Of a stretch of DNA of 25,559 bases, positions 971 to 25,559 are shown piece after piece (the first letter of the stretch is position 1; every line of letters starts with the position of its first letter). The translations under genes and the position numbers were made by a program. The notes beneath the pieces were generated by a model, which worked only from the letters and a program-made list of their open reading frames with translations, did not search any database and was not told the DNA's origin. The DNA is taken from NCBI GenBank assembly GCA_964574925.1, contig CAZNQN010000001.1:1-25559 (forward strand). The letters are read 5' to 3'. This stretch comes from an uncultured Phycisphaeraceae bacterium. GTDB lineage: Bacteria; Planctomycetota; Phycisphaerae; UBA1845.

Positions 971-979
971 AAGGGGACA

Positions 980-3215: not shown

Positions 3216-3218
3216 ATC

Positions 3219-4943: not shown

Positions 4944-4956
4944 GGAGCGGGTCGGC

Positions 4957-8131: not shown

Positions 8132-8156
8132 GAATCGAATGGATTGCTAGGACATG

Positions 8157-8192: not shown

Positions 8193-8198
8193 TTCAAC

Positions 8199-9829: not shown

Positions 9830-12800
9830 TTACGGCTCCTCACCTTTCCAGTCGGGCAGTCGTCCCGGCGTCCAGGGCGCATGAGCCGCTTCGAACTTCT
9901 TCTCCAGCGCCGTCAGGTCGCGCATCAGCGCGCGAAGCTCGTCCTGCGCCTCGGCGAACGCCTCGCCCGCGTAACGGTATTCGTCACGCTGCGTCTGCGT
10001 CGGCGCTGAGGTGACGTACCAGTCCATCGCGTTGCTGATGCGGGTGGCGATCGAGGGCGGCACGGGTTCCTGGTGCTTGGCCCGCGTCCGGTCGCCGCTC
10101 AGCTTCGTCCGCAGCTTGTTCAGGCGACCCTCCAATGCGTGCAAGTGCGCGAACAGGTCGGGCTTGGCCTCCGGCGTCTCCAGATACGCCTTGCGAAGGT
10201 GGGCGATGCGCCGGGCGATCTCGTCGGTGCTGCGGATCGCGCCGCGTACCGCGCGGTACAGCTCCGCCACCTGGCGATTGAATGTCATCGCCTCCTCCTG
10301 GTCCTCCGCCGGGAAGGTCGCCAGCTTCAGCGGCACCACCTTGAAGGACACCGGTTCCGTCAGCTCGCTGATCTGCCCGTCCACCTCCTTGACGAGCGTG
10401 ACCGTGTAGGTGCCGGGCAACGCCAGCGGACCGGAGGGCGACCGTTCCCACGGTGGTCGGTTTTCGTTTTTTTTCAGAGAGATCGGCTGCGTGGACGGGT
10501 AGCGCAGGTTCCAGGCCGCCCGGTGGATGCCCTTCTCGCGGGACCCCTTGACCCGGCGGACGACCTCGCCGCTTTCGTCGCGCACCACCAGCCAGACCTG
10601 CGGCTCTTTCTCCTCGTCCTCGGCCCGCAGCTCCTCCAGCGTGGGATAGCGGACCGGTTTGCCGGCTTTCATGGCCTTTTTCTCCGCTTCGCGGCGCTTC
10701 TCCTTGCGCGTCTGGAGTTTCTCCTTGAGGTAGTAGGTGAACACGGCACCGAAGGGCGGGTTCTTGGCGGTGAAGTAGGAGGCACCCTGCGAGCCGCGCC
10801 CGGTGAAACCGCCCAGCCGGCTGTGCGGGATGTAACGCAGCGCGTCCTTGACGGGGAAGACATGGGCCGCCTTTTGGAGGAGCTCCTCGGTGACATGGCG
10901 AAGCGGGGTGTAGTCGTCGAGGATGTAGAATCCCCGGCCGAAGGTGGCCATCGCGAGGTCGTTCTCCCGCCGCTGCACGTCCAGGTCGCGGACGGCGATG
11001 GTGGGCAACCCGCTGATCTTGAACCACTTCTTGCCGCCGTCGAGCGTGAAATAGGCGCCGAACTCGGTGCCCACGAACAGCAGGTCCGCCTTCTCGTGGT
11101 CCTGCTGGATGCTGTAGACGATGTTTCGCTCCGGCAGGTTGCCGGTGATCGAGGTCCAGTTCCGCCCACGATCGGTGCTCTTGAGCAGGTACGGTTTGAA
11201 GTCGCCGTTCTTGTGGTTGTCGAAGGAGGCGTAGACCGTATCGGGATCGTGAAGAGAGGCGTAGACACAACTGACGTAGGTCATGTCGGGCACTTCGGGA
11301 AAGAGGGCGATCCGCCGCCACGTCTTGCCGCCGTCCTCGGTGACGTCGATGAGTCCGTCGTCGGTGCCTACGTAGATCAACCCCTCCACCAGCGGCGATT
11401 CGCTCAGCGCCACGGCATTGCCGAAGATGGAGGTGGAGCGGTTCTTGGCGACGGCGTCCACGCTCTGGATCTTGCCCATCACTTCGAGCTGGTTGCGGTC
11501 CAGCCGCCGGGTGAGGTCGCCGCTGATGACCGTCCAACTGTTGCCGCGGTCGTCGGAGCGGAACAGCTTGTTGGCGGCGAAATAAAGCCGTGTGTGACTG
11601 TGCGGGCTGATGATCAGCGGCGTATCCCAGTTCCAGCGGTAGGGCTCCTCGCCCGGTTTCTCCCGCGGTTTGATGTCCACGATCTCGCCGCTGCGGCGGT
11701 CGTGACGCACGAGTCCGCCGTACTGCCACTGGCTGTAGACGATGTTCGGGTCTTCAGGATCGACCTGGGTCTTGTATCCGTCGCCGCCGACGGTGATGAA
11801 CCAGTCCTCGTTGGCGATCCCGCCGGGACTGAGCGTCCGCGAGGGACCGCCCTGCGAATTGTTGTCCTGCGTCCCGCCGTAAACGTTGTAGAAGGGTTTC
11901 GCCTGGTCGACGCTTACGCGGTAGAACTGGGTCACGGGCAGGTTGGGTTTGAAGTGCCAGTTCCGCGCGCGGTCGTAGGTTTCGTAGATGCCGCCGTCGC
12001 AACCGACCAGCATGTGTTCGTTGTTGGCGGGGTCGATCCAGAGGGCGTGGTCGTCGACGTGGCGGTCCTTGCCCGGCACGCGGTGGAAGGTCTTGCCGCC
12101 GTCCTCGGTCACGCGCATGAAGGTGTCCAGCGCGTAAACCCGGTCCACCTCCACCGGGTCGCAGACGATCTCGTTGTAGTATTGGGGACTGGTCGTCATG
12201 TACCCGCTGCGCCTCTCCCACGTCTCGCCCCGATCGGTGGAACGGAAGAAGCCGCCCTTGTCGAACTGCGCCTCGATAATGGCGTACACCACGTCCGGAT
12301 CGGCCGGCGAGATGCACATGCCGATCCGTCCCTTGTCCACGTTGGGGATGCCGTGGGTGATCTTGCGCCAGGTCTTGCCGGCGTCGGTGGACTTGTAGAT
12401 CGCCGATTCCGGACCCCCGTTGATCAGCGTCCAGACCCGGCGGCGGCGCTGGTAGGCGGTGGCGTACAGCGTATCGGGATCGCGCGGGTCCATGTGGACC
12501 TCGTTGATTCCCGTATCGTCGCTGATGTGCAGGATGCGCCTCCAGGTCTTGCCGCCGTCGGTCGTTTTGTACAACCCGCGATCGCCGCCGGAGCGCCACA
12601 GCGGTCCCTGGGCGGCCACGTAGACCACGTTCGAATCGCGCGGGTCGACGACGATCCGCCCGATGTGTTCGGACTCTTTCAGGCCCATGTTCCGCCAGTG
12701 CTTCCCGCCGTCGACACTCTTGTACACCCCGTCGCCGAACGACACGCTGCGCTGACTGTTGTTTTCGCCCGTACCGACCCAGACGACGTGCGGGTTGTTC

Positions 12801-13129
12801 GGATCGACGGTGACGCAGCCGATCGAGTACGAGCCCTGTGAATCGAAAACGGGTGTGTAGGTGATGCCGGCGTTTTCCGTCTTCCAGACGCCGCCGGAGC
12901 AGACGGCCACGTAGTATTCCGTCCAGTCGTGCGGGTTGATGCCGAAGTCGCAGATCCGCCCGGACATCAGCGCCGGGCCGATCGACCGTGCTTTCAACCC
13001 GGCGAACGTGGCGTTGCTCAACGTGACGCCGCCGGGTTTGCCCTCCTTTTCCCCGGCCCGCACGGGGCACAGGGCCGGGAGGGCGCACAACGTGACCAGT
13101 CCGAGGGTACGAAATGGGGAATGCTTCAT
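9830..13129 (-). CDS. Secreted Asp-box/BNR-repeat beta-propeller protein (VPS10/sortilin-like, usually annotated as a glycosyl hydrolase), 1099 aa
   Basis: Sec signal peptide and 11 Asp-box-like motifs (e.g. YKSVDGGKHW, YKTTDGGKTW, FRSTDRGETW). C-terminal Ig-like segment (VRDESGEVVRR..GIHRAAWNLRY..PGTYTVTL) and a helical tail. AAGGAG SD on the minus strand. Confidence 0.88.
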   Translation of the reverse strand: MKHSPFRTLGLVTLCALPALCPVRAGEKEGKPGGVTLSNATFAGLKARSIGPALMSGRICDFGINPHDWTEYYVAVCSGGVWKTENAGITYTPVFDSQGSYSIGCVTVDPNNPHVVWVGTGENNSQRSVSFGDGVYKSVDGGKHWRNMGLKESEHIGRIVVDPRDSNVVYVAAQGPLWRSGGDRGLYKTTDGGKTWRRILHISDDTGINEVHMDPRDPDTLYATAYQRRRRVWTLINGGPESAIYKSTDAGKTWRKITHGIPNVDKGRIGMCISPADPDVVYAIIEAQFDKGGFFRSTDRGETWERRSGYMTTSPQYYNEIVCDPVEVDRVYALDTFMRVTEDGGKTFHRVPGKDRHVDDHALWIDPANNEHMLVGCDGGIYETYDRARNWHFKPNLPVTQFYRVSVDQAKPFYNVYGGTQDNNSQGGPSRTLSPGGIANEDWFITVGGDGYKTQVDPEDPNIVYSQWQYGGLVRHDRRSGEIVDIKPREKPGEEPYRWNWDTPLIISPHSHTRLYFAANKLFRSDDRGNSWTVISGDLTRRLDRNQLEVMGKIQSVDAVAKNRSTSIFGNAVALSESPLVEGLIYVGTDDGLIDVTEDGGKTWRRIALFPEVPDMTYVSCVYASLHDPDTVYASFDNHKNGDFKPYLLKSTDRGRNWTSITGNLPERNIVYSIQQDHEKADLLFVGTEFGAYFTLDGGKKWFKISGLPTIAVRDLDVQRRENDLAMATFGRGFYILDDYTPLRHVTEELLQKAAHVFPVKDALRYIPHSRLGGFTGRGSQGASYFTAKNPPFGAVFTYYLKEKLQTRKEKRREAEKKAMKAGKPVRYPTLEELRAEDEEKEPQVWLVVRDESGEVVRRVKGSREKGIHRAAWNLRYPSTQPISLKKNENRPPWERSPSGPLALPGTYTVTLVKEVDGQISELTEPVSFKVVPLKLATFPAEDQEEAMTFNRQVAELYRAVRGAIRSTDEIARRIAHLRKAYLETPEAKPDLFAHLHALEGRLNKLRTKLSGDRTRAKHQEPVPPSIATRISNAMDWYVTSAPTQTQRDEYRYAGEAFAEAQDELRALMRDLTALEKKFEAAHAPWTPGRLPDWKGEEP

Positions 13130-13728: not shown

Positions 13729-14217
13729 ATGCTGACGCTGACGGGGGAGTATGCGCTGCGGGCGATGGTGTTCCTGGCCCGGCAGGACGGCGGTGGTCCC
13801 GTCCCGGGACGCCGCATCGCACGGGAAACGCGGATCCCGCCCACTTACCTGTTGAAAGTTCTGGGGGATCTCGTCCGGGCCGGGTTGCTCGCCTCGGCAC
13901 CGGGTCGGCACGGAGGATTCCGGCTGGTGCGCGCCCCGAATCGAACCACGCTCTACGAGGTGTTGGTCCCCTTCGAGGTTCTCGAGCACGAGCGTTGCCC
14001 GTTCGGGAACGAGATTTGCAGCGAAGAACACCCGTGCAGGGCCCACGAAAAGTGGAAACGGGTCGTGGATTCCGAAAAACGCTTCCTCAAGCGGACCACC
14101 ATTGCGGATCTCGTGCAGCCGGAGGCGACGAAAGGACCGGCCCGCCGTCGGCGCAGCGGCACGAAGTCCCCCCGTCGGGAGACTCGGCGGACGTCCCGCA
14201 AGGGCGGTGGGCGGTGA
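13729..14217 (+). CDS. Rrf2-family transcriptional regulator with Fe-S cluster cysteines
   Basis: EYALRAM, IPPTYLLKVLGDLVRAGLL and GRHGGFRL. Cys90, Cys97 and Cys103 followed by His106 (CPFGNEICSEEHPCRAH). GGGAGG SD. Confidence 0.92.
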   Translation: MLTLTGEYALRAMVFLARQDGGGPVPGRRIARETRIPPTYLLKVLGDLVRAGLLASAPGRHGGFRLVRAPNRTTLYEVLVPFEVLEHERCPFGNEICSEEHPCRAHEKWKRVVDSEKRFLKRTTIADLVQPEATKGPARRRRSGTKSPRRETRRTSRKGGGR

Positions 14218-14232
14218 AAGGCGACGTGACGA

Positions 14233-16203
14233 ATGGGTGAAGGTGAAACAGCGGTGGCATCGCGCGGAACCGCCGACGGCTGGCCCGTCGTTCCCGTCGA
14301 GGTGCCGGACGAAACCTACTGGCGGAAACAGATCAAGTGCCAGTACGCCTGCCCGGTACACACCGACGCCCGCGGTTACGTGCGGGCCATCGCCCGCGGT
14401 GATTTCGAGACGGCCTATCTGATCGCCCGCGGTCCCAACCCGCTGGCGAGCATCTGCGGGCGGGTGTGCGGAGCGCCGTGCGAGGCCGCCTGTCGCCGCG
14501 GCTCCCTCGATCAGGCGATTTCCATCCGCGCCCTGAAGCGGTTCGTCACGGAACAATTCGGTCCGGAAGCGTTCCGGGAGGCGGAGTTCAAACCGCTCGA
14601 TCTTCTTCGCCGGGTGCTTCGCCACGCCTCGGAGCGAGCGTGCAGCGGTCCGGAGGAGCTGGCCGCTTTGGCGAAGACGCTTCGCCTGCGAAACGGCAAG
14701 CCCCCCGACGGTCCGAGCGTGGGCATCATCGGCTCCGGTCCGGCGGGTCTGGCGGCCGCTCACGATCTGGCCTTGCTGGGGTACCGCCCGGTGGTCTACG
14801 AGCTGGAGCCGGTGCCGGCGGGGATGCTGGCCGTCGGCATTCCGGAGTATCGCCTGCCGCGCGATCTGATCCGGGCGGAGGTGGAGGTCATCCGCGCCCT
14901 GGGCGTCGAGTTCATCTGCAACACCCGCGTCGGCGAGGACATCACGCTGGCGGAGATCCGCCGCAAGCATCGTGCGACCATTATCGCCGTGGGGGCGAAG
15001 AAGTCGCGCTCCATTCCGATCCCCGGCGCCGACGGACCGGGCGTCTTCGGCGGGATCGAGTTCCTCCGTGACGTGGCGCTGAAGAACCGCGGCGAGGGGT
15101 CCACCCTCCGTCGTCTCGGCAAGCGGATCGTGGTGATCGGCGGGGGGAACGTGGCCTACGACGTGTCGCGGACGGTGATCCGGCAGACGGGGTATGACGT
15201 GTCGCGCAGCGCGCTGCGTCAGGCGGCGGGGGCGGAGGTGCACCTGTGCTGCCTGGAGAGCATCGACGAGATGCCGGCGGACGACGTGGAGATCCTCGAA
15301 GGAGACGAGGAGGGCGTCCGACTCCATCCGTCCCTCGGTCCGGCGGAAGTGCTCCGCGACGGGGCGAGGGTGCGCGGCGTGGTCTTCAAGCGGTGTCTGT
15401 CGGTCTTCGACGAGAAGGGGCGCTTCGCCCCGCGCTTCGATGAAAACGACCGCGTGACGATCGAGGCGGACACCGTCATCTGGGCGATCGGGCAGCGACC
15501 GGACCTGTCGTTCGTCGAGCCGGAAGCGGATTTGAAGCTCAACGAACGCGGACTGATCGACTGCGATCCGGAGACATTGCAGACCTCGGCGCAGGACGTC
15601 TTCCTGGCGGGGGACATCGCGCACGGTCCGCGTCTGTTGATCGATGCCGTGGCGAGTGGAAAGAAATGCGCCCGATCGATTCACGCGTACCTGTCGGGCC
15701 AACCGCTGTCGTCGGAGCGGGAGCTGGTCCATCTGGAGATTCCGGGATACGAGCGGGAACCGGATTACGAAAAACATCCGCGCCGTCCCGTTCCCACGCT
15801 GGAGCCGCAGAAACGGCGGGCGAGCCAGACGGCCGTGGTGGAACGCGGCTACACGCGCGACGAAGCGATGTTCGAGGCCTGTCGCTGCCTGGATTGCGGC
15901 GTGAACACCATTTTCGATTCGGACAAGTGCATCCTCTGCGGCGGGTGCGCGGACGTCTGCCCGGAGCTTTGCCTGCAACTGGTCTCGTGCGACCGGCTTG
16001 CCGGGGACGAGCGTGTTCAAAGCGCCCTGCGGGAACGATTCGGGGAGGAGGACCTAACGGCCGTTTCGGCCATCGTGAAGGACGAGGAGAAGTGCATTCG
16101 TTGCGCCCTGTGTGCCCAGCGCTGTCCGACGGGGGCGATCACGATGGAGCGGTTTTCATTCCGGGATATGTGGAACGCGCCCGCGGGGGCGTGTACGGGA
16201 TAA
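14233..16203 (+). CDS. Cytoplasmic FAD/Fe-S NAD(P)H oxidoreductase (GltD/NfnB/DsrL-like) with a C-terminal 2x[4Fe-4S] ferredoxin domain
   Basis: CQYACP and CGRVCGAPCEAAC; GSGPAG (FAD) and GGGNVA (NAD(P)H); FLAGD; CRCLDC; CILCGGCADVCP and CIRCALCAQRCP. No signal peptide. Confidence 0.9.
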   Translation: MGEGETAVASRGTADGWPVVPVEVPDETYWRKQIKCQYACPVHTDARGYVRAIARGDFETAYLIARGPNPLASICGRVCGAPCEAACRRGSLDQAISIRALKRFVTEQFGPEAFREAEFKPLDLLRRVLRHASERACSGPEELAALAKTLRLRNGKPPDGPSVGIIGSGPAGLAAAHDLALLGYRPVVYELEPVPAGMLAVGIPEYRLPRDLIRAEVEVIRALGVEFICNTRVGEDITLAEIRRKHRATIIAVGAKKSRSIPIPGADGPGVFGGIEFLRDVALKNRGEGSTLRRLGKRIVVIGGGNVAYDVSRTVIRQTGYDVSRSALRQAAGAEVHLCCLESIDEMPADDVEILEGDEEGVRLHPSLGPAEVLRDGARVRGVVFKRCLSVFDEKGRFAPRFDENDRVTIEADTVIWAIGQRPDLSFVEPEADLKLNERGLIDCDPETLQTSAQDVFLAGDIAHGPRLLIDAVASGKKCARSIHAYLSGQPLSSERELVHLEIPGYEREPDYEKHPRRPVPTLEPQKRRASQTAVVERGYTRDEAMFEACRCLDCGVNTIFDSDKCILCGGCADVCPELCLQLVSCDRLAGDERVQSALRERFGEEDLTAVSAIVKDEEKCIRCALCAQRCPTGAITMERFSFRDMWNAPAGACTG

Positions 16204-16215: not shown

Positions 16216-16710
16216 ATGCCCACGACGAGTCCCGAACTGGAACAAAGCCAGCGCTTTCGACCGCCGGAGACGCGGCGGGATTTTCTGGGATTGGCGGCGG
16301 CATGGTCCGCGGTGGTGGCGATGGTGATGGCGCTTCTGGGGGCGATGCGACTGCCCATGCCCTCGGTGTTTCCCGAGTCGAATTCGAAGGTCAAGCTCGG
16401 CAAACCGAAGCGCTATGCCGTCGGTTCCGCGACCTATTTCCCCAAGCACCGCCTCTGGCTGTTCCGGACCCCGGAGGGGTTTCATGCCCTCTCGGCCGTC
16501 TGCACCCACCTGGGGTGCGTGACGGAGAGAGAAGAGGACGGGCATTTCCAGTGTCCGTGTCACGGCAGCAAGTTCGCGGCGGACGGGGCGCTGCTCGCGG
16601 GTCCGGCGCCGAGAGGGTTGCACTGGGTGGAGCTGAGCGTGTCGCCGGAGGGGTGGCTGGTGGCGGACACGCTGCGCGACGTGGAACCGGGGACCGTGTT
16701 GCAGGCCTAG
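16216..16710 (+). CDS. Rieske [2Fe-2S] subunit of a Rieske/cytochrome b complex
   Basis: Tat-like TRRDFL plus TM helix; box I CTHLGC; box II CPCHGS; GPAPRGL. Confidence 0.95.
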   Translation: MPTTSPELEQSQRFRPPETRRDFLGLAAAWSAVVAMVMALLGAMRLPMPSVFPESNSKVKLGKPKRYAVGSATYFPKHRLWLFRTPEGFHALSAVCTHLGCVTEREEDGHFQCPCHGSKFAADGALLAGPAPRGLHWVELSVSPEGWLVADTLRDVEPGTVLQA

Positions 16711-16731
16711 GCGGGCAAGCGGAGTGTCATC

Positions 16732-18336
<1,605 letters not shown>

Positions 18337-18359
18337 TTCACAAGGATCGGAAATCAGCG

Positions 18360-21359
18360 ATGGACATCAAGCAAGTCCGAGTGATGAAGGCGGTGCTCCT
18401 GGTCAGCTCGCTGGCGTCGCTGCTGGTGCTGGCGACGGCGGCCTATCAGGAGAACCTCACCGGGGAATGGCGCGACGCCCAACGCGCCTACAAGAAGCTG
18501 CTGCTGGAGACGGCGCCGGACGACAACGCCCGCAGGGTGGCCGCCTCGTTCCGCATCGAGCCGCGACAGCTCTATCTCCCGGAGCTGGGTCGGATCGACC
18601 GGTGCACGACGTGCCATCTGGGAGTGGAGAATCCCGCCGCCGGAGACGCCGATCCGCCGCTGGGCAGGCACCCGGGCGAGTGGCTCGTCCAGCATCCGCC
18701 GGAGAAGTTCGGCTGCACGATCTGTCACGAGGGGCGCGGACGGGCCACGGTGCGGGAACTGGCGCACGGCTGGGACGAACACGGCGAGGCGGTGCCCTTT
18801 GTGGAAAGGCCGCTGCTGCGCGGCGACGCGGTCTATACGAGTTGCGGGCGCTGCCACGCGGAAATCGATCTGTTCGGTGGGGAGGCGGATCTGTTCGCAG
18901 GCGGGGCGAGCGGAACGAAACTGGTGGCCGCCGTCACGGAGGAATCGCTTCACCGGACGCTGCCCGGGGCGGATCGTCTGGCGCGGGGGAAGCGTCTCAC
19001 GGCGGAACTGGGTTGCCTGGGCTGTCACAAGTATCGCGGTCGCGGCGGCACGCTGGGACCGGACCTGACCTACGTCGGCGACAAAGGCAAACACCAGTTC
19101 GATTTCACGCATGTGAAGGGGGAGCACACCGTCGAACAGTGGCTCTTCGAGCATTTCAAGACGCCGCGGGAGATTTCGCCCAACACCGTCATGCCCGACA
19201 TGGGGCTTTCCGATGACGAGGCGCGCGATCTGGCGCTGTACATGATGAGCCTGCATCGCAAGACGGCGCCGGCGAGTCATATGCCGCCCCCGCCGAAGCA
19301 TGTGGCCTCGGCGGAACCTGTCCGGGGGGAAACGCTCTACAAGATGTTCTGCTCCGCCTGTCACGGGGCGGACGGGTCCGGCACGACGATGCGGGAGGGG
19401 TTGTGGCCGATCGGTGCCGATCCCTGGGGACGGGACTGGGATGCAAAGTCGGTCGTGGTCCAGCGACGCGGCAGCCTGGAGGTGATGGTTCCCTCGCTGC
19501 ACCACGACGACACGCTGGCGACCGTCAGCGACGAGTATCTCTACGCGATCATCGCGGGCGGGCGTCCGGGGACGAAGATGCCGGCATGGGCGGACGAGGG
19601 CGGCCTCAGCGACGATGAGATCACGTTGCTCGTCTCCTTCCTGCGCCGGTGGCAGGAGCCGCCGCCCGATCGGGCGGGCGTTTCGGCCAAGCGGGGCGAT
19701 CCGCGCGTCGGGGCCGCCCTGTATCGGGCCAACTGCGCCGCCTGCCACGGCGTCCGCGGCGAGGGCGGGATCGGCGTCTCGCTCAATTCCCCGACGTTCC
19801 TCGCCGTGGCATCGGATGAATTTCTCCGCGACACGATCGTGTATGGTCGGCCCAATACGGCGATGCCCGCCTGGCGGCAGTTCGACGCCCAGGAATTGAG
19901 CGATCTGCTGGCGTACATCCGCACCTGGCAGCCGCAACGCAGCACGCCGGAAAAGACGCTCGCGCTGCTGAAGAACGGTGAGGAGGCGGGCGTTTCGGCG
20001 CGGATCGGCCGGATCCTCTACGATGCGAACTGCGCCACCTGTCACGGGCCGGACGGCGGCGGCGACCTTGGACCGTCGCTGAATACGCAGGCGTTCCTGA
20101 CGGTCGTGCCGGATCGGTATCTGGTGGAGACGCTCATCCGCGGTCGGCCGGGAACGGGTATGCCGAGCTGGCGGCACCTCTCCGACGAGGATGTCGCCTC
20201 GCTGGTGCGTTACATCCGGACGTGGCAGCGGAAGCCGTCGAAACCGGACGACTGGTACGCGCAGACGGTGCCGCGCGGTGACTGGGACGCAGGGCGAAGT
20301 CTCTTCCACGGTCAGTGTGCGTCCTGCCACGGGCAGGAGGCGGAAGGGGCATCCGGGCCGCAGCTCGCCAACCCCGTTTTTCTCGACCTCGCCTCCGATG
20401 TCATGCTGCGCGAGTGGATCCGCAACGGCAAGGAGGGAACGGAGATGCGCCCGTTCCGCAAGGGCGGACAGGGCGTCGCGGAACTCTCCGATCGCCAGAT
20501 CGAGGACATCATCGCCTACCTTCGCTTCCTGGGCCGATCCGGAGAAGGCGCGGTGAGCCGTGTGGCCAAGTCGCCGTTCGGTCGCCCGGAAAAGGGAGCG
20601 GTGGTCTACGCGGCGAACTGCACCGGATGTCACGGTCCGCGGGGCGAGGGCGCGAGCGGTCCGGCGCTGTCCAATCCCAATTTCCTGCGCTTTGCTTCCG
20701 ACGGGTTTCTGATGGCGACGATGGCCATCGGGCGACGGGGCACGGAAATGCGCCCGGTCAAGCGCGGACCGCAATCCATTCTCGGACTGAGCAGCGACGA
20801 GATACACGATCTGGTCGCCTATCTGCGCTCCTGGGAGTACGCCCCGCCGTTTCCGCGGGTGACGGGCGGATCACCGAAGGCGGCCGTGCCACATCGTTTC
20901 GTTGTGCCGTGGAACCTGAAACGGGGGCAGAGGCTGTTCCGTTCCTTCTGTGCCGGTTGCCACGGCAAGGAGGGGAAAGGTTCCTGGGCGCCGGAACTGA
21001 ACAACGAGGGGTTCCTCTCGGCGGCCACCGACGGGTTCCTTCAGGCGACGATCATCCGCGGTCGCAAGGGCACGGCCATGCGCCCCTTCGGACGTGGGGC
21101 CAACGGGCTGAGCGATCTGACCATGCAGGACGTGGACGACATCGTGGCGTACATCCGGAGCTGGTCGGGCTCGACGCCTTCCCCGATGACGCTGCCGGCC
21201 GAGCGCTCGCTGCAATGGCCGGATACCGAAGAGGTGACACAAGGTCGGGCGCCGGAGACGGAGGGCGCGCCGGTCGGCGCCGTTGCTGAGGATGAATCGC
21301 GTCGCTCGCCGCCGGCCGTGGCGACGGCGACTGTTCGTGCAAGGAGATCGAAACGATGA
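18360..21359 (+). CDS. Membrane-anchored modular decaheme cytochrome c (999 aa)
   Basis: N-terminal TM/signal and ten CxxCH motifs: CTTCH, CTICH, CGRCH, CLGCH, CSACH, CAACH, CATCH, CASCH, CTGCH, CAGCH. The last seven are in class I domains with a distal MP/MRP Met. Start placed at the ATG at 18360, after AAGGA. Confidence 0.92.
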   Translation: MDIKQVRVMKAVLLVSSLASLLVLATAAYQENLTGEWRDAQRAYKKLLLETAPDDNARRVAASFRIEPRQLYLPELGRIDRCTTCHLGVENPAAGDADPPLGRHPGEWLVQHPPEKFGCTICHEGRGRATVRELAHGWDEHGEAVPFVERPLLRGDAVYTSCGRCHAEIDLFGGEADLFAGGASGTKLVAAVTEESLHRTLPGADRLARGKRLTAELGCLGCHKYRGRGGTLGPDLTYVGDKGKHQFDFTHVKGEHTVEQWLFEHFKTPREISPNTVMPDMGLSDDEARDLALYMMSLHRKTAPASHMPPPPKHVASAEPVRGETLYKMFCSACHGADGSGTTMREGLWPIGADPWGRDWDAKSVVVQRRGSLEVMVPSLHHDDTLATVSDEYLYAIIAGGRPGTKMPAWADEGGLSDDEITLLVSFLRRWQEPPPDRAGVSAKRGDPRVGAALYRANCAACHGVRGEGGIGVSLNSPTFLAVASDEFLRDTIVYGRPNTAMPAWRQFDAQELSDLLAYIRTWQPQRSTPEKTLALLKNGEEAGVSARIGRILYDANCATCHGPDGGGDLGPSLNTQAFLTVVPDRYLVETLIRGRPGTGMPSWRHLSDEDVASLVRYIRTWQRKPSKPDDWYAQTVPRGDWDAGRSLFHGQCASCHGQEAEGASGPQLANPVFLDLASDVMLREWIRNGKEGTEMRPFRKGGQGVAELSDRQIEDIIAYLRFLGRSGEGAVSRVAKSPFGRPEKGAVVYAANCTGCHGPRGEGASGPALSNPNFLRFASDGFLMATMAIGRRGTEMRPVKRGPQSILGLSSDEIHDLVAYLRSWEYAPPFPRVTGGSPKAAVPHRFVVPWNLKRGQRLFRSFCAGCHGKEGKGSWAPELNNEGFLSAATDGFLQATIIRGRKGTAMRPFGRGANGLSDLTMQDVDDIVAYIRSWSGSTPSPMTLPAERSLQWPDTEEVTQGRAPETEGAPVGAVAEDESRRSPPAVATATVRARRSKR

Positions 21360-24157
21360 GTGACAAACCCATGACCGTACTGGATCCGGACGGTCTTCCC
21401 GCGGAATGCACGTTCCACCGGGCGGTCAAGAACGCCTGCGGATTCGACCGGCGGGCGTTCATGCGGATGGCCGCCGGGACCGGCGCCGCCGTGGCGGCGA
21501 CCAGTCTTCTGCCGGACGAATTCGTCGTGGCCCGCGCCGCGCCCACGCCGGGCGTCGACGACGGACGGGGGATGCGCCTGCTCCAGGCGGCCTGTCCGTA
21601 TTGCGGGGTGGGCTGCGGGACGCTGATCAAGGTGGAAAACGGACGGGTCGTCGGCATGGTCCCCGACAAGAAGCATCCCACCAACCGGGGCATCCAGTGC
21701 ATCAAGGGACTCAACGCCCATGAGCCCATCTACAAGGACCGGCTCACGAAGGTGCTCATCCGCCGCGACATGAGCGATCCGCTCCGCGGGCACGTCTCGG
21801 CCACCAAGGGACGCTTCGACGACGACGTGTTCCGCGAGGCGACCTACGAAGAGGCTGAGGAGATCGTCGCCGACCGCATCGCCGAGCTGGTCAAGGAGCG
21901 CGGACCGAACGTGATCGGCCTGAACGGCTCCGGTCAGCTCACCATGGAGGCGCAGTGGATCGAGAACCTGCTGATGAAGGGCGTGCTGGGGAGCAACTCG
22001 ATCGAGGCCAACGCCCGCATGTGCATGACCTCGGCGGTCACGGGGTATTTCTACTCCTACGGCTCCGACGCGCCGCCCACCAGCTACGAGGACATCGAGG
22101 AGGCCGACTTCATCACCTTCTGGGGACACAACGCCCGCGAGGCGCACCCGATTCTGTTCTGGCGGGTGGCGGACCACAAGGCCCGCAACGACATCCCCAC
22201 CTGCGTATCCGATCCGCGCCGCACGGGGACGGTTGTCGGACTCGAAGACATCAATCCGCGGAACAGCTATCACATCCAGACGCTCAACGGCGACATCAGC
22301 TACCTCAACGCCATCGCCTATCTGCTCATGAAGCGGTATCCGCGGGCGTGCATGCCGGAAGCATGGCTGGAGAAGAACACCAACGGGTGGAAGGATTACC
22401 GCGACGGTGTTTTGCAACGGTACTCGCCGGAGCAGGTGGTCGAGCGGCTCAAGCCGATCGACCAGGGGCGGGTGACGGTGGAACTGCTGGAAAACGTCGC
22501 CCGCACCTGGGCAGAAGCGTCGATCCGCGGGCGGGAGCGCGGGCGGGGCGGCGTGCTGAGCTTCTGGGGCCTCGGATACAACCAGATGCTCCACGGGCAG
22601 CACAACACCATCAGCATCATCAACCTGCATCTGCTGACGGGGAACGTGGGCCGACCCGGATGCGGCAGCCACTCCCAGACCGGTCAACCCAACGCGATGA
22701 GCGAGCGGTTGATGGGCGGACTCACCGGAAGACTGCCGTTCAATCAACCTCTCAAGAACGCCGCCTGGCGGGACCACATCGCCGACGCGTGGCGCATTCC
22801 GCGGGAGCGGCTCGCCCAGACGAGTCTGCTTCCCAACCCGGGCATGGTCCTCGGCATGATGGAGCGGGCGCTGAAGGGCGGGCTGGACGCCATGTTCTGG
22901 ATGTACACGACGCACGTCCATCTGCCCGATTTGAAGAACCTGGTGCGCCCCGCGATGACCCGCATGTTCTGCGTCGTGCAGGAAATCTATCGCCACGCGC
23001 CCAACAACCTCTATGCGGACGTCATCTTTCCCGCCGCCACCTGGGGAGAGTGGACCGGCGGCACCTACATCCAGTCCGAGCGGCGGGTGTACGTCTGCGA
23101 CGGGACGGCCAACCCGCCGCCCAACTGCCGACCCGACATGGACATGGCCATCGACAAGGGCAAGGCGCTCGCCAAGCGGCTGGGGCTCGATCCGGACACG
23201 ATCTTCCCCTACGAAAAGAAGATCAAGATGGGCAACGGGATCATGGCCTACGATCCGGAGGACGTGTTCCGGGACATCGTCACCGCCAGCAAGGGATCGG
23301 ACGCCGACATGAGCGGCATGTTGGAAGTGGAAGCACGGGACGGCATTTCACTCTACGACCAGCTTCGCACCCTGCGGGGCGTTCAATGGCCGGCGCCGAC
23401 CTACGAGATCGCCAAGAAAGGCGGCACGCCGCGGCGCTACCTCGGGCAGGAAGGCTGGGCGGGCAAACCCTACGGCGCGTTCCGCCACAAGGACGGCAAG
23501 GCCCGCTTCAAGCTCTGCGAGCAGGATTACACCAAGCTCAAGGAAATCACCTCCAAGCTGATGACCTACGGCAACAAGCGGCGTCCGGGGGAAGGACCGT
23601 TCCTGATCGACGATCTCTATACCGACGGTCCCAACAAGGGCAGGCCGAAGATTCTGGTCGCCGCCCGCGACGCGGGTGTGACGCCGGAACTGCCCGATCT
23701 CGATGCCTACCGCGATCCGTCGCTGACCCTGAAGGATTTCCAGGAGCGCGATCTGTATCCGTTCTGGCTGGGACTGGGCGTGGTGTACGAACACTTCCAC
23801 ACCGCCAAGACCATCCGCGGGGCCACGACGCGCAAGCTCGTGCCCGAACAGTACGTCGAGGTCAACTCGGAGGACGCGAAGCGGTTCGGTCTCAAGGACG
23901 GGCAGCGGGTGCGGCTGGTGACCCGTCGCGGCTCGTACGAGGCGCGGGTTTCCGTCGGGCAGACGAGCATGATTCGTCCGGCCCGCAACCAGACCTTCCC
24001 CGGATACCTGTTCAGTCCGTGGAACCTGTCGGTGGCGGACAGCGCCGACCCGCGGAAGAACAAGTGGCTGGTCAATGCGACGAGCCACCGGGCGTGGGAT
24101 CCGGTCAGCGGTCAGTGCGACTACAAGAAACTGGCCGCCAGGATCGAGCCGCTGTGA
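21356..24157 (+). CDS. Tat-exported Mo-bisPGD oxidoreductase of the nitrate reductase (NapA/NasA/NarB) clade, divergent (933 aa)
   Basis: DRRAFM Tat motif; CPYCGVGC...CIKG [4Fe-4S]; Mo-ligand region NARMCMTSAV (Cys-Met, not the Cys/Sec-His of formate dehydrogenases); GSDAPPTSYEDIE; GQPNAM; EHFHT. ATGA overlap with the cytochrome c gene. Confidence 0.88.
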   Translation: MSDKPMTVLDPDGLPAECTFHRAVKNACGFDRRAFMRMAAGTGAAVAATSLLPDEFVVARAAPTPGVDDGRGMRLLQAACPYCGVGCGTLIKVENGRVVGMVPDKKHPTNRGIQCIKGLNAHEPIYKDRLTKVLIRRDMSDPLRGHVSATKGRFDDDVFREATYEEAEEIVADRIAELVKERGPNVIGLNGSGQLTMEAQWIENLLMKGVLGSNSIEANARMCMTSAVTGYFYSYGSDAPPTSYEDIEEADFITFWGHNAREAHPILFWRVADHKARNDIPTCVSDPRRTGTVVGLEDINPRNSYHIQTLNGDISYLNAIAYLLMKRYPRACMPEAWLEKNTNGWKDYRDGVLQRYSPEQVVERLKPIDQGRVTVELLENVARTWAEASIRGRERGRGGVLSFWGLGYNQMLHGQHNTISIINLHLLTGNVGRPGCGSHSQTGQPNAMSERLMGGLTGRLPFNQPLKNAAWRDHIADAWRIPRERLAQTSLLPNPGMVLGMMERALKGGLDAMFWMYTTHVHLPDLKNLVRPAMTRMFCVVQEIYRHAPNNLYADVIFPAATWGEWTGGTYIQSERRVYVCDGTANPPPNCRPDMDMAIDKGKALAKRLGLDPDTIFPYEKKIKMGNGIMAYDPEDVFRDIVTASKGSDADMSGMLEVEARDGISLYDQLRTLRGVQWPAPTYEIAKKGGTPRRYLGQEGWAGKPYGAFRHKDGKARFKLCEQDYTKLKEITSKLMTYGNKRRPGEGPFLIDDLYTDGPNKGRPKILVAARDAGVTPELPDLDAYRDPSLTLKDFQERDLYPFWLGLGVVYEHFHTAKTIRGATTRKLVPEQYVEVNSEDAKRFGLKDGQRVRLVTRRGSYEARVSVGQTSMIRPARNQTFPGYLFSPWNLSVADSADPRKNKWLVNATSHRAWDPVSGQCDYKKLAARIEPL

Positions 24158-24215: not shown

Positions 24216-24842
24216 ATGAGGGGCGGACAACCCACCCGTCGGGAGTTCGTCAAGCACGCCGCTGTCGTCGGGGCGGCTGTCGGCGGGGGAGTGTATCTGG
24301 CATCCGTCGAGGGAGTCGGTCGAGACGAGGCTGCCGATCCGCCGCCGCTGCGCCCGCCGGGAGCGCTGCCGGAAAGCGCCTTTCTGGCGACGTGCATCCG
24401 CTGCCTGCGCTGCGTGGACGCCTGCCCCAATCATGCCCTGGTGTCGCTGCCGATCGGGACGCCGGGCGGTCAGGGGGGGACGCCGACGTTGAGGCCCCGC
24501 AAAGCGGCCTGCATGTTGTGCGACACCGATGCGGGCGAGTTCCTCAAATGCACCGAGGTCTGCCCCTCGGGGGCGCTTCAGCTCGTCCGCAAGACGAAGG
24601 AGGAGATTCACGAAAAGGTGCACATCGGCGTGGCGGAGATCGATTTCGATCTGTGCTACTCCTACAACAACTGGAGCTGCGGGGCGTGTTTCCGGGCGTG
24701 TCCGCTGGCGGGCGAGGCGCTGACGGTGGGATTGTGGGAACGGCCGACGGTGCATGAGGAGGCCTGCGTGGGGTGCGGTTGTTGCGAGCGGGCGTGCATC
24801 CGCTATCCGCACGCCATTCGGGTCAAGGTGAAAAGCGCATGA
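24216..24842 (+). CDS. NapG/MauM-type 4x[4Fe-4S] ferredoxin, copy 1 (208 aa)
   Basis: Tat motif TRREF; LRPPGALPESAFLATCIRCLRCVDACP; CMLC...CTEVCP; C...CGACFRACP; CVGCGCCERAC. Start moved to the ATG at 24216, after GGAGAGGGG. Confidence 0.9.
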   Translation: MRGGQPTRREFVKHAAVVGAAVGGGVYLASVEGVGRDEAADPPPLRPPGALPESAFLATCIRCLRCVDACPNHALVSLPIGTPGGQGGTPTLRPRKAACMLCDTDAGEFLKCTEVCPSGALQLVRKTKEEIHEKVHIGVAEIDFDLCYSYNNWSCGACFRACPLAGEALTVGLWERPTVHEEACVGCGCCERACIRYPHAIRVKVKSA

Positions 24843-25559
24843 TGGGGTTTTCCCGCCGGGACGTGATTCGTGCCACGGGCGCGGCACTGCTGGTGTCGCT
24901 GCTGGGAAGCGCAGCGCACGCGCTGATGCGGATTCGGAAGGCGAGGTACCCGGCCGTTCGCCGTCCCTACGCCCGTCCGCCGGGTTTGCTGCGCCCGCCC
25001 GGCGCGCTGCCGGAGGAGGATTTTCTGGCGGCGTGCATCCGCTGTTACCGCTGTCAGGACGCTTGCGAACCGGGGGCCATTCAGTTCTTCAGCGAGCGCG
25101 ACGGGCTGTTGTTCCATACCCCCTACGTCGATCCCGCGAAGAAGGGGTGCACGCTGTGCAACCAATGCGGACCGGCGTGTCCGACGGGCGCCCTTGTCCC
25201 GTTTTCGGACAGGTCCGAGGTGGACATGGGTTCGGTGGCGTTGCGGGAGGATCTTTGTCTTTCCCACAAGGCCAAGCGGATCCGGCGGGAACAGGATTTG
25301 CTTGCCCGTCTGGGGCAGCGCCCGACGAGCTCCCAGGCCGTCGTGGAACGGCGCGGGCCGTGCGGCGAATGCTACATGGTCTGCCCGCTGCGGAATCGGG
25401 CCATCAAGCTTGAACCGGGTTCTTTCCTGGCCCCCATCGTGGACCCGCGGGCGTGCGTGGGATGCGGACTGTGCGAGGAGATCTGCCGCACGGTGGTCCG
25501 CGGAGAACCGGCGATCCGCGTCGTGCGGACGCGACGGATGGCGGGAAGCGAGGCACCGG
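24839..25559 (+). CDS. NapG/MauM-type 4x[4Fe-4S] ferredoxin, copy 2 (3'-truncated by the window, missing from the ORF track)
   Basis: Translated by hand from the ATG at 24839 (ATGA overlap): MMGFSRRDVIRATGAALL..LRPPGALPEEDFLAACIRCYRCQDACEP..CTLCNQCGPACP..CLSH..CGECYMVCP..CVGCGLCEEIC. No stop before the window end. Confidence 0.9.
   Translation, partial: MMGFSRRDVIRATGAALLVSLLGSAAHALMRIRKARYPAVRRPYARPPGLLRPPGALPEEDFLAACIRCYRCQDACEPGAIQFFSERDGLLFHTPYVDPAKKGCTLCNQCGPACPTGALVPFSDRSEVDMGSVALREDLCLSHKAKRIRREQDLLARLGQRPTSSQAVVERRGPCGECYMVCPLRNRAIKLEPGSFLAPIVDPRACVGCGLCEEICRTVVRGEPAIRVVRTRRMAGSEAP

What the first reader, a model, noticed from the sequence alone, without database searches (positions are those of the whole stretch)
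21356..24157. Molybdoenzyme is Tat-exported like NapA but has Nas/NarB-like and non-consensus active-site motifs
Seen: Mo-ligand Cys at 22022-22024 in NARMCMTSAV. GSDAPPTSYEDIE and GQPNAM resemble cytoplasmic assimilatory NasA/NarB as I recall them, more than proteobacterial NapA (GMDEPMGCYDD, GQPSAC). Three consensus departures: WGLGYNQ in place of WTMGxNQ (active-site Met to Leu, 22571-22573); GQPNAMSERL in place of GQPNAMGGRE; and WLGLGVVYEHFHT in place of LTTGRxxEHWHT (cofactor-contacting Arg lost, near 23771-23782). Inference: an uncharacterised sub-clade whose substrate may not be, or may not only be, nitrate.
Basis: partly seen in the sequence, partly recalled or inferred. Interest (0 to 1): 0.75.

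Follow-up and report, generated by a model that had tools for sequence, protein, structure and literature searches.

The report
Third lineage of nitrate-reductase-like molybdoenzyme
The gene encodes an exported molybdenum enzyme from a widespread, strongly conserved and unstudied branch that stands beside the two known nitrate reductase types (periplasmic NapA, assimilatory Nas); it most likely reduces nitrate, but this is unproven and standard annotation files it wrongly as NapA.

Summary
ORF 21356-24157 (933 aa) has a Tat leader, a 4Fe-4S motif and Cys223 at 22022-22024. All three motif departures sit at the stated coordinates. They are invariant in 120 homologues of 73-85% identity from several phyla, except that the family has Ile where this window has Leu406.

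The protein falls below every NapA, Nas and Fdh curated cut-off. In trees it forms its own long-stemmed clade (support 100). Nesting inside three different NapA subgroups is rejected (AU p 0.004-0.022). A sister position to NapA or to Nas is not rejected.

Seven of eight NapA channel and electron-transfer residues are kept, and the best structural match is Desulfovibrio NapA (TM 0.91).

The gene always travels with two NapG-like and two NapH-like genes. It usually also travels with a GltD-like flavoprotein, Rieske, cytochrome b and a multihaem cytochrome, and never with NapD.

Carrier genomes almost all lack NirK, NirS and NrfA. About a third also hold an ordinary Nap with its own NapD.

Links to an Rrf2 regulator, to hcp and to a hemerythrin-like gene point to N-oxide chemistry.

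Verdict: a new variant of a known kind, probably a nitrate reductase, with the substrate unproven. The scan has found this family before on other DNA.

The parts
21356..24157 (+). Gene for the Nap/Nas-related Mo-bisPGD enzyme (933 aa)
   Evidence: ORF and translation. Pfam Molybdop_Fe4S4, Molybdopterin and Molydop_binding. AlphaFold model pLDDT 87.8. Best fold match Dd NapA, TM 0.91.
21356..21538 (+). Tat signal region (residues 1-61) with DRRAFM at 21446-21463. A possible A-R-A cleavage site at residues 59-61 is inferred only.
   Evidence: Sequence. The NapA HMM aligns from residue 30 to its profile position 3. A Tat motif is present in 13 of 14 family rows. The model is of low confidence over residues 1-70.
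21593..21709 (+). 4Fe-4S binding motif C80-x2-C83-x3-C87 ... C115-I-K117-G
   Evidence: Pfam Molybdop_Fe4S4 over residues 76-126. The cysteines and Lys117 are nearly invariant in alignment A1.
22022..22024 (+). Cys223, predicted Mo ligand, within the family-specific R-M-C-M-T-S-A
   Evidence: Aligned to Cys140 of Dd NapA. Invariant in 120 homologues. Thr two residues after the Cys occurs in all family rows and in none of 101 other enzymes.
22067..22072 (+). Asp238-Ala239, equivalent to NapA channel residues Asp-Glu (Dd D155/E156, Cj D191/E192). The Glu is lost, as in Nas.
   Evidence: Alignment with references. Residue roles from PMC12769810.
22571..22573 (+). Leu406 at the position of Dd NapA Met308. 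The family consensus is Ile.
22682..22732 (+). GQPNAMSERLMGGLTGR, holding Arg451 (Dd Arg354, Cj Arg463) and Arg459 (Cj Arg471). Both are kept, and the flanking GG/E is replaced by SE/L.
23765..23803 (+). WLGLGVVYEHFHT. Val809 (23780-23782) replaces the near-universal Arg of the TGR motif. His813 and His815 are kept.
13729..14217 (+). Rrf2-family regulator at the head of the operon
   Evidence: Pfam Rrf2. NCBIfam assigns the superfamily only. Found upstream in 28-30 of 82 related loci.
14233..16203 (+). GltD-like NAD(P)-binding Fe-S flavoprotein
   Evidence: Conserved in synteny.
16216..18336 (+). Rieske protein (16216-16710) and cytochrome b (16732-18336)
   Evidence: Conserved in synteny.
18321..21359 (+). 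Multihaem cytochrome c (1012 aa) with seven class I domains, the likely direct electron donor to the molybdoenzyme
   Evidence: Pfam. Its domains are 33-40% identical to the dihaem cytochrome encoded next to deep-branching relatives of the enzyme.
24216..24842 (+). First NapG-like Tat-exported ferredoxin (start at 24216 inferred)
   Evidence: NCBIfam NapG/MauM and a Tat signal. Start codon and ribosome-binding site.
24839..25558 (+). Second NapG-like ferredoxin, cut by the end of the contig. The operon continues on contig C134 of the same genome.

Best explanation
The gene encodes the catalytic subunit of a distinct, uncharacterised lineage of Tat-exported, cysteine-ligated Mo-bisPGD enzymes. 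This lineage branches beside NapA and the assimilatory Nas/NarB enzymes rather than inside either.

Most likely it reduces nitrate to nitrite in the periplasm. Proposed electron routes (inferred):
1. Two NapG-like/NapH-like quinol dehydrogenase modules. These form the universal core of the system.
2. In this genome and most others, a dedicated Rieske/cytochrome b complex, acting through a cytochrome c built of repeated class I domains. This cytochrome takes the place of NapB.

The family-wide substitutions are Thr after Cys-Met, Ile/Leu for Met, SE-R-L for GG-R-E, and Val/Ile for the Arg of TGR. They are lineage signatures under strong selection and probably tune the cofactor environment and kinetics. 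They need not change the reaction.

Shown: clade identity, conservation, fold, gene partners and co-occurrence patterns. Inferred: the substrate, the direction of electron flow, and who docks to whom.
For: Distinct lineage:
- The best NCBIfam scores are NapA 300 bits (cut-off 904), Fdh-alpha 294 (666) and NasA 261 (1000).
- Only four 50%-identity clusters (55, 50, 42 and 41% identity) lie between the family and everything else, which is at 39% or less.
- In the ML tree the family plus three of these four deep relatives form a clade with support 100 and a stem of 0.64. It lies outside the NapA clade (99) and the Nas clade (99).
- AU tests reject nesting with heterodimeric NapA (p 0.022), Dd-type NapA (0.004) and Selenomonas-type NapA (0.004).

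Nitrate-reductase-like chemistry:
- It lies on the Cys-Met side of the tree, away from Cys/Sec-His formate dehydrogenases.
- The CjNapA residues named in PMC12769810 map as follows: R174 to R221, C176 to C223, D191 to D238, R463 to R451, R471 to R459, H715 to H813/815, K79 to K117. Only E192 is lost, as in Nas.
- The model is closest to Dd NapA (TM 0.91, 28% identity), then to E. coli, C. necator and R. sphaeroides NapA.

Partners:
- 82 loci from many phyla keep the order enzyme, NapG, NapG, NapH-like, YHS+NapH-like. Most also have GltD-like, Rieske, cytochrome b and multihaem cytochrome upstream.
- Elusimicrobiota keep only the core.
- Deep relatives have dihaem cytochrome c + enzyme + NapG + NapH. 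That dihaem protein is homologous to the repeats of the multihaem cytochrome.

N-oxide link:
- An Rrf2 regulator lies upstream in about 30 loci.
- hcp lies inside the operon in L063 and L066.
- A hemerythrin-domain gene with faint similarity to YtfE/DnrN directly follows the operon in 10 Phycisphaerae-type loci.
- Two Elusimicrobiota genomes have NrfA and no Nar or Nap other than this enzyme.
Against: - No member has been assayed, so the substrate is an inference from relatives.
- Carrier genomes almost all lack dissimilatory nitrite reductases: NirK 0 of 51, NirS 1 of 51, NrfA 5-6 of 51.
- About 17 of 50 carriers also hold a canonical or Dd-type Nap gene. For 13 of them a NapD match was found in the genome, 12 beside that gene. 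Six hold NarG. This suggests a non-redundant role.
- Four active-site-region positions that are nearly fixed in Nap and Nas are changed and fixed differently here.
- Microaerobacter geothermalis, a nitrate reducer carrying a deep relative, has two NarG genes. Its phenotype is therefore no support.
- From memory only, not checked here: Deferrisoma camini, which carries the full operon and no NarG, was described as an iron and sulfur reducer that does not use nitrate.
- The genomes are mostly incomplete MAGs, so absences are soft.
Confidence: 0.6

Rival explanations
1. It is a periplasmic reductase for a different high-potential oxyanion, such as selenate, iodate or chlorate/perchlorate. Nitrate would be at most a side substrate.
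For: - Family-specific fixed substitutions lie around the active site.
- It coexists with an ordinary Nap, usually with NapD, in about a third of carriers.
- Nitrite reductases are nearly absent from carriers.
- Its supply chain runs through a Rieske centre and class I cytochromes. That would suit any acceptor of high potential (inference).
- NapA itself is promiscuous towards chlorate and perchlorate (PMC12769810).
Against: - The nitrate-binding Arg pair, the Asp and the Cys-Met are kept.
- Chlorite dismutase-family genes are absent from 33 of 52 carriers, including all close relatives of this window, and are never linked to the operon.
- The linked accessory genes (Rrf2, hcp, hemerythrin-like) point to N-oxides.
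- No known selenate, iodate or perchlorate reductase belongs to this part of the MopB tree (established knowledge; PMC10100899).
Confidence: 0.2
2. It works in the oxidative direction. A periplasmic donor such as nitrite or another oxyanion precursor is oxidised. Its electrons are pushed through the cytochrome and the Rieske/cytochrome b complex towards quinone and NAD(P)+.
For: - The operon carries a cytoplasmic NAD(P)-binding flavoprotein attached to a Rieske/cytochrome b module. In anammox bacteria this arrangement is discussed for NAD(P)H production (PMC12954380).
- Carriers lack nitrite reductases.
Against: - All characterised enzymes of the Nap/Nas superclade are reductases.
- Elusimicrobiota keep the enzyme with the NapG-like and NapH-like genes but without the Rieske, cytochrome b and flavoprotein genes.
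- In canonical Nap systems NapGH acts as a quinol dehydrogenase.
- Many carriers already hold an Nxr-like enzyme (PMC10732223).
Confidence: 0.07
3. It is simply an ordinary NapA orthologue with lineage-specific drift, as pipelines label it.
For: - Sources name homologues 'ferredoxin-nitrate reductase'.
- The closely related OFTM Phycisphaerae MAGs come from a study that reports periplasmic nitrate reductase (napAB) as prevalent in its Phycisphaerae genomes (PMC10732223).
- The best PDB and HMM matches are NapA.
Against: - It scores a third of the NapA cut-off.
- It forms a separate clade, and three nestings inside NapA are rejected.
- There is no NapD, NapB or NapC in or beside the operon. NapD matches lie beside the other Nap gene (12 of 13) or elsewhere (1), never beside this gene.
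- Its substitutions are absent or rare in 101 other enzymes.
Confidence: 0.03

Closest known systems
Monomeric periplasmic nitrate reductase NapA of Desulfovibrio desulfuricans (PDB 2NAP, 2JIO)
   Same: - Best sequence match in the PDB (E 8.5e-74) and best fold match (TM 0.91).
- Tat export, 4Fe-4S motif, Cys-Met at the Mo site, and Arg354 equivalent.
- No NapB.
   Different: - 28% identity.
- About 200 extra residues, including a long stretch between residues 617 and 800.
- Met308 becomes Ile/Leu, Glu156 becomes Ala, Arg617 becomes Val/Ile, and Asp355 becomes Leu.
- A separate clade (AU p 0.004 against grouping with Dd-type NapA).
- No NapD.
Epsilonproteobacterial Nap (napAGHBFLD) fed by the Qcr Rieske/cytochrome bc complex (Campylobacter jejuni, PMC6195509; CjNapA structure PMC12769810)
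   Same: - A periplasmic Mo enzyme working with NapG/NapH and depending on a Rieske/cytochrome b complex.
- Most channel residues are shared.
   Different: - Here the Rieske/cytochrome b genes, a multihaem cytochrome and an NAD(P) flavoprotein sit in the same operon.
- NapG and NapH are duplicated, and one NapH carries a YHS domain.
- NapB, NapD, NapF and NapL are missing.
- The enzyme is not in the NapA clade.
Assimilatory nitrate reductases NasA/NasC/NarB
   Same: - Motifs GQPNAM and Asp-non-Glu after the Mo-ligand helix.
- CPYCGVGCG.
- A joint clade with Nas is not rejected (AU p 0.45).
   Different: - Nas enzymes are cytoplasmic with no Tat leader. They are linked to nirB/nirA and nitrate transporters, and they keep GGRE and TGR.
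- HMM scores are far below cut-offs (261 against 1000, and 193 against 1100).
Rieske/cytochrome b complexes of Kuenenia stuttgartiensis with an NAD(P) oxidoreductase subunit (Kuste4569-4574, Kustd1480-1485; PMC12954380)
   Same: The operon has the same architecture around the enzyme: a GltD-like flavoprotein, Rieske, a b6-like cytochrome b and a multihaem cytochrome c, with a periplasmic terminal enzyme for a high-potential N-oxide.
   Different: - The terminal enzyme there is an HAO-like octahaem protein. Here it is a molybdoenzyme with NapG-like and NapH-like proteins.
- The hosts here are mostly heterotrophic, non-anammox bacteria.
Caldithrix abyssi nap cluster with Rieske/cytochrome b genes (PMC5317091)
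   Same: A precedent for Rieske and cytochrome b genes lying inside a nap locus together with NapG and NapH.
   Different: As described, that cluster has a Desulfovibrio-like nap organisation with NapM and NapF and a neighbouring epsilon-Hao. No flavoprotein or class I multihaem cytochrome is described for it.

Membership tests
Periplasmic nitrate reductase NapA (NCBIfam NF010055 / TIGR01706) | Score above the curated equivalog cut-off | tested here: not met
   300.4 bits against a cut-off of 904, and 278 against 930.55.
Periplasmic nitrate reductase NapA (NCBIfam NF010055 / TIGR01706) | Twin-arginine signal peptide | tested here: met
   DRRAFM at residues 31-36. The NapA profile aligns from its position 3. 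The motif is conserved in the family.
Periplasmic nitrate reductase NapA (NCBIfam NF010055 / TIGR01706) | N-terminal 4Fe-4S cysteines with the Lys between cluster and pterin, and Cys as Mo ligand followed by Met | tested here: met
   C80, C83, C87, C115, K117, C223 and M224.
Periplasmic nitrate reductase NapA (NCBIfam NF010055 / TIGR01706) | Conserved polar channel residues (CjNapA R174, D191, E192, R463, R471, H715) | tested here: inconclusive
   Five of six are kept. Glu192 is Ala, as in Nas. The mapping is by alignment, not by a structure with cofactor.
Periplasmic nitrate reductase NapA (NCBIfam NF010055 / TIGR01706) | Placement inside the NapA clade | tested here: not met
   It forms a separate clade. 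Three nestings are rejected at AU p 0.022, 0.004 and 0.004. A sister position is not rejected at p 0.39.
Periplasmic nitrate reductase NapA (NCBIfam NF010055 / TIGR01706) | NapD chaperone encoded with the enzyme | tested here: not met
   There is no room for NapD within the tightly packed operon. NapD is found in 13 of 52 carrier genomes, in 12 beside the other Nap-type gene and never beside this gene.
Periplasmic nitrate reductase NapA (NCBIfam NF010055 / TIGR01706) | NapB, NapC or NapM cytochrome partner | tested here: not met
   The operon's cytochrome is built of class I (Cytochrome_CBB3 / Cytochrom_C) domains plus a c7-like head, and matches no NapB or NapC family. No separate genome-wide NapB search was run.
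Periplasmic nitrate reductase NapA (NCBIfam NF010055 / TIGR01706) | Nitrate reductase activity | not testable with these tools
Assimilatory nitrate reductase NasA/NasC/NarB | Score above the curated cut-off, and cytoplasmic location | tested here: not met
   NasA_Halo 260.8 against 1000, and NasC 192.9 against 1100. A Tat leader is present.
Assimilatory nitrate reductase NasA/NasC/NarB | Motifs GQPNAMGGRE and TGRxRDQWHT, and linkage to nitrite reductase or transporter genes | tested here: not met
   GQPNAM is shared, but GGRE is SERL and the TGR Arg is lost. The only recurrent neighbours are Rrf2, a hemerythrin-like gene and MoaA.
Formate dehydrogenase (FdhF/FdhA type) | Cys or Sec followed by His, and Arg in the RGQ motif | tested here: not met
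   Cys-Met and TGQ here. The FDH rows form the outgroup.
Anammox-type Rieske/cytochrome b complex with NAD(P) oxidoreductase (context of the enzyme) | Co-operonic GltD-like flavoprotein, Rieske, b6-like cytochrome b and multihaem cytochrome c | tested here: met
   Pfam and NCBIfam on the window's genes and synteny in 56-72 of 82 loci. Whether the proteins form one complex was not tested.

The most novel reading that the evidence does not exclude
The conserved physiological substrate of this lineage is not nitrate. On this reading the fixed changes around the molybdenum site mark a new specificity, either another high-potential oxyanion or an oxidative reaction. That would explain two patterns: why a third of carriers keep an ordinary Nap beside it, and why carriers lack nitrite reductases. 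About 540 species-level genomes now counted as 'napA' carriers would then be mis-scored in nitrogen-cycle surveys.
Probability: 0.25. Interest if true: 0.8.

Novelty: new variant of a known kind. Interest (0 to 1): 0.55.

Why it matters
Relatives of this enzyme occur in 540 of about 185,000 species-level genomes. The phyla include Planctomycetota, Wallbacteria, Latescibacterota, Elusimicrobiota, Gemmatimonadota and Myxococcota.

The enzyme is unusually conserved, at 68-85% identity across phyla. Annotation pipelines call it NapA, a ferredoxin-nitrate reductase or a selenocysteine dehydrogenase. Metagenomic nitrogen budgets therefore count it as periplasmic nitrate reductase without any test.

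If it does reduce nitrate, it is a third structural solution. It is hard-wired to a Rieske/cytochrome b module and could conserve energy or make NAD(P)H. It also offers a tractable, non-anammox model for the complexes proposed in Kuenenia. If it does not reduce nitrate, a new respiratory substrate class is hidden under a wrong name.

Either way the family's fixed substitutions give a clean set of mutagenesis targets for understanding specificity in Nap/Nas enzymes.

Tried and rejected
1. treekit's AU test with the mixture model did not finish in three 300-s runs. It was replaced by IQ-TREE LG+G4 constrained fast searches and an AU test. These use a simpler model and fast searches, so the p-values are approximate.
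2. I hoped the nitrate-reducing Microaerobacter geothermalis, which carries a 50%-identical deep relative, would give physiological support. Its genome has two NarG genes, so it does not.
3. TIGR01703 was entered as a presumed HAO model but is the hybrid cluster protein. The result was used as such and led to the hcp-in-operon observation. HAO-like octahaem proteins, NirBD, Nor and NosZ were not surveyed.
4. Chlorite dismutase (PF06778) as a marker for chlorate or perchlorate respiration: there is no linkage and it is absent from most carriers. The family also covers HemQ-like proteins, so the test is weak.
5. Six literature searches found no paper on this enzyme family. The original description of Deferrisoma camini is not held, so its electron-acceptor range is quoted from memory only.
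6. Sequencing-run search: only DNA runs hold the gene (a hot-spring metagenome and a marine one) and no RNA run does. Expression could not be examined.
7. Coordinates of the predicted model are not available to scripts. Distances from Cys223 to the substituted residues could not be measured, and the claimed cofactor contact of the lost Arg stays unverified.
8. No complex prediction was sent. The enzyme plus a useful piece of the cytochrome exceeds the size limit.


Full report
**1. The observation**

The ORF 21356-24157 (+) translates without stops to 933 residues.
- Cys223 is TGC at 22022-22024, within NARMCMTSAV.
- Leu406 is CTC at 22571-22573, within WGLGYNQ.
- GQPNAMSERL is at 22682-22711.
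- WLGLGVVYEHFHT is at 23765-23803.

The start ATG overlaps the stop of the upstream cytochrome gene (ATGA). Residues 31-36 read DRRAFM. The NapA profile aligns from residue 30 onto its own signal region, so the Tat reading is sound. Pfam finds the three domains of a MopB enzyme.

**2. Are the motif departures real and non-random?**

I fetched annotated references from plasmid records: E. coli, C. necator and C. sphaeroides NapA, a Selenomonas Nap with NapC and NapD, Klebsiella and Ralstonia NasA, Chondrinema and Paenibacillus nitrate reductases, and E. coli and Haloferax FDH. I aligned them with 120 homologues of the window protein.

The recalled consensus motifs are right. NapA has CMASA, WTMGFNQ, GQPSACGTARE and TGRVLEHWH. 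Nas has CMSSA, GQPNAMGGRE and TGRxRDQWH.

In the family, CMTSA, GQPNAMSERLMG and LG(I/V)VYEHFH are invariant. Position 406 is Ile in 119 of 120, and only this window has Leu.

Among 101 other Cys-Met enzymes taken from a search of 1.84 billion representatives:

| Column | Other Cys-Met enzymes (n = 101) | This family |
|---|---|---|
| Two residues after the Cys | Ala or Ser, never Thr | Thr |
| Position of Dd NapA Met308 | Met 55, Gln 42 | Ile (Leu in this window) |
| Position of Dd NapA Arg354 | Arg 100 | Arg (kept) |
| Residue after that Arg | Glu 89 | Leu |
| Arg of TGR | Arg in 92 of 97 with a residue there | Val or Ile |

The departures are therefore lineage signatures under purifying selection. 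One caveat is that the 'Met' column is variable in Nas anyway. The catalytic Arg is kept: the HMMER alignment to Dd NapA puts Arg451 on Arg354.

**3. What it is**

The protein scores below every curated equivalog cut-off: NapA 300 against 904, Fdh-alpha 294 against 666, NasA 261 against 1000, NasC 193 against 1100.

At 50% clustering only four clusters bridge the family to the rest (55, 50, 42 and 41% identity). After them identity drops to 39% or less.

An IQ-TREE analysis (80 rows, 738 columns, LG+C20 PMSF, quick search) gave these results:
- The family plus three of the four deep relatives form one clade (SH-aLRT 100, stem 0.64).
- That clade lies outside a NapA clade (99) holding all NapA references, and outside a Nas clade (99).
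- All of these are separated from the FDH outgroup (100).

AU tests under LG+G4:

| Constraint | AU p | Result |
|---|---|---|
| Family nested with heterodimeric NapA | 0.022 | rejected |
| Family nested with Dd-type monomeric NapA | 0.004 | rejected |
| Family nested with Selenomonas-type NapA | 0.004 | rejected |
| One clade with all NapA | 0.39 | not rejected |
| One clade with Nas | 0.45 | not rejected |

It is therefore a third lineage whose exact sister is unresolved.

The AlphaFold2 model is good (pLDDT 87.8, pTM 0.86). It is closest to Dd NapA (target-normalised TM 0.91, 28% identity), then to the other NapA structures (0.83-0.85), then to FDHs.

**4. Active-site reading**

PMC12769810 names Lys79 and the channel residues Arg174, Asp191, Glu192, Arg463, Arg471 and His715 of CjNapA, beside the ligand Cys176. 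By alignment these are K117, R221, D238, A239, R451, R459, H813/H815 and C223.

Seven of eight are kept. The Glu is lost, exactly as in Nas enzymes. The pocket is thus that of a nitrate reductase with a handful of fixed second-shell changes.

The order of change can be read from the deep relatives. Thr after Cys-Met, a non-acidic residue (Leu or Met) after the Arg, and loss of the TGR Arg are ancestral to the whole clade. The Met-to-Ile change came later: P0123 and P0126 still have Met.

**5. Surroundings**

In the window the gene is sixth in a co-directional, tightly packed operon:
1. Rrf2 regulator
2. GltD-like NAD(P) flavoprotein
3. Rieske protein
4. Cytochrome b
5. A 1012-aa cytochrome c
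6. The enzyme
7. Two Tat-exported NapG-like ferredoxins

The contig ends there. The YHS/NapH-like gene lies on contig C134 of the same 72%-complete MAG, which comes from a hot-spring metagenome.

A scan of GTDB species genomes found 540 with a relative. The best 80 are mostly MAGs of Phycisphaerae and other Planctomycetota, plus Wallbacteria, Latescibacterota, Elusimicrobiota, Eiseniibacteriota, Gemmatimonadales, Binatota and Myxococcota.

In these loci and in Deferrisoma camini the order is conserved: GltD-like, Rieske, cytochrome b, multihaem cytochrome, enzyme, NapG, NapG, NapH-like (about 510 aa), YHS-NapH-like (about 660 aa), often followed by a third NapG-like gene.

Four Elusimicrobiota loci lack the flavoprotein, Rieske, cytochrome b and cytochrome c genes, and L074 lacks all of these but a cytochrome c gene. 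The invariant core is therefore the enzyme plus two NapG-like and two NapH-like proteins.

Deep relatives have dihaem cytochrome c, enzyme, NapG and NapH. That dihaem protein is 33-40% identical to the repeated domains of the window's cytochrome. The large cytochrome therefore looks like an amplified version of the enzyme's original redox partner.

Outside the operon only three neighbours recur:
- Rrf2.
- MoaA.
- A hemerythrin-domain protein with faint similarity to YtfE/DnrN. It directly follows the operon in ten Phycisphaerae-type loci.

In two Planctomyces-like loci an hcp gene sits between the Rieske and cytochrome b genes.

**6. Co-occurrence in carrier genomes**

| Gene searched | Carrier genomes with it |
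|---|---|
| NarG above cut-off | 6 of 50 |
| NapA above cut-off | 7 of 50, plus about 10 with sub-cut-off Nap-type genes |
| NapD | 13 of 52, in 12 beside those Nap-type genes, never beside this family |
| NirK | 0 of 51 |
| NirS | 1 of 51 |
| NrfA | 5-6 of 51 (three Elusimicrobiota, two Wallbacteria, one weak match) |
| Hcp | 16 of 52 |
| Cld-family | 19 of 52, none linked, none in the window's close relatives |

These genomes are mostly MAGs, so absences are soft. The pattern is still clear. The family is often the only candidate nitrate reductase, is sometimes a second one, and rarely meets a classical nitrite reductase.

**7. Mechanism proposed**

- Shown: an exported Cys-ligated Mo-bisPGD enzyme of Nap/Nas type with its own conserved partner set.
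- Inferred: it reduces nitrate to nitrite. Electrons would come from quinol through the NapG-like/NapH-like modules and, where present, through Rieske/cytochrome b and the class I multihaem cytochrome. This parallels Campylobacter, where Nap depends on Qcr (abstract of PMC6195509, listed), and the Caldithrix nap locus (PMC5317091).
- The GltD-like subunit makes the module resemble the Kuenenia complexes proposed to split quinol electrons between a high-potential N-oxide and NAD(P)+ (PMC12954380). Nitrate at +430 mV would fit that scheme. This is speculation at the level of the whole system and was not tested here.
- The Rrf2, hcp and hemerythrin-like links are what one expects around an enzyme that makes nitrite.

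**8. What keeps the substrate open**

- No member has been assayed.
- Four positions are re-fixed.
- The enzyme coexists with ordinary Nap.
- Carriers lack nitrite reductases.

I put nitrate at about 0.6, another oxyanion at 0.2, an oxidative role at 0.07 and 'ordinary NapA' at 0.03. The remainder is unassigned.

**9. Novelty**

Six literature searches found no study of this family. MAGs of the Oslofjord tunnel study are among its closest carriers, and that study reports periplasmic nitrate reductase (napAB) as prevalent in its Phycisphaerae genomes (PMC10732223). The large MopB phylogenies read here do not single it out.

This scan has met the family several times on other DNA and reached similar readings, so this window adds a further instance rather than a first sighting.

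New in this report:
- Residue-by-residue mapping of the NapA channel residues.
- Column statistics for the motif positions.
- The AU tests.
- The minimal core seen in Elusimicrobiota.
- The segregation of NapD with the other Nap-type genes.
- The survey of nitrite reductases in carriers.
- The hcp and hemerythrin-like links.

Noticed in passing
L063:2172-3461 and L066:2533-3846: A hybrid cluster protein gene (hcp, 650-660 bits against a cut-off of 367) is inserted inside the operon between the Rieske and cytochrome b genes in two Planctomyces SH-PL62-like MAGs. A macro-domain (DarG-like) ORF follows it.
   Followed up: partly
L018:18638-19219, L021:18387-18962, L027:18692-19270 and seven more Phycisphaerae-type loci: A gene of about 190 aa for a hemerythrin-domain protein, with faint similarity to the Fe-S repair proteins YtfE/DnrN (43 bits against a cut-off of 254), directly follows the operon on the same strand. 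Deferrisoma has a hemerythrin gene upstream instead (L001:2410-2814).
   Followed up: partly
L086, L088, L092, L095 (Elusimicrobiota) and L074: In the four Elusimicrobiota loci the enzyme and its NapG-like and NapH-like genes occur without the GltD-like, Rieske, cytochrome b and multihaem cytochrome genes. Rrf2 and sometimes MoaA lie upstream instead. L074 keeps a cytochrome c gene upstream but lacks the other three. This is a natural 'minimal' version of the system.
   Followed up: partly
Genomes G041 (locus L081, Binatota) and G042 (locus L082): Each holds about 20 paralogous genes for NarG-related type II MopB proteins of about 950-1180 aa, several in tandem on one contig (G042:C18). This is an unusual expansion of unknown function.
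   Followed up: no
Genomes G003-G012, G021, G031, G034, G036, G046: Many carriers also encode a MopB of about 1170-1260 aa that matches NarG only weakly (E about 1e-13 to 1e-18). This probably corresponds to the Nxr/Nar-like genes reported for the Oslofjord Planctomycetota MAGs.
   Followed up: no
Protein P0127 (680 aa, Deltaproteobacteria MAG): A relative at 41% identity has lost the Cys-Met ligand motif (NG--CEPAS) and the GQPNAM motif. It may be a degenerate or non-catalytic copy.
   Followed up: no
window 32-9650: A flagellar gene block (FlgH, FlgI, FlgN, FlgK, FlgL-like, FliW, flagellin) fills the first 9.6 kb. FlgI appears to carry an N-terminal extension of about 180 residues before the Pfam domain.
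   Followed up: no
window 9830-13129 (-): A 1099-aa protein with BNR/Asp-box and sortilin-Vps10-type repeats lies between the flagellar block and the respiratory operon, on the opposite strand.
   Followed up: no
L001:15623-17608, L002:15601-17589, G000:C134:1730-3391: The second NapH-like membrane protein carries an N-terminal YHS (metal-binding) domain in all lineages. Nothing is known about why a NapH-type quinol dehydrogenase would need one.
   Followed up: partly
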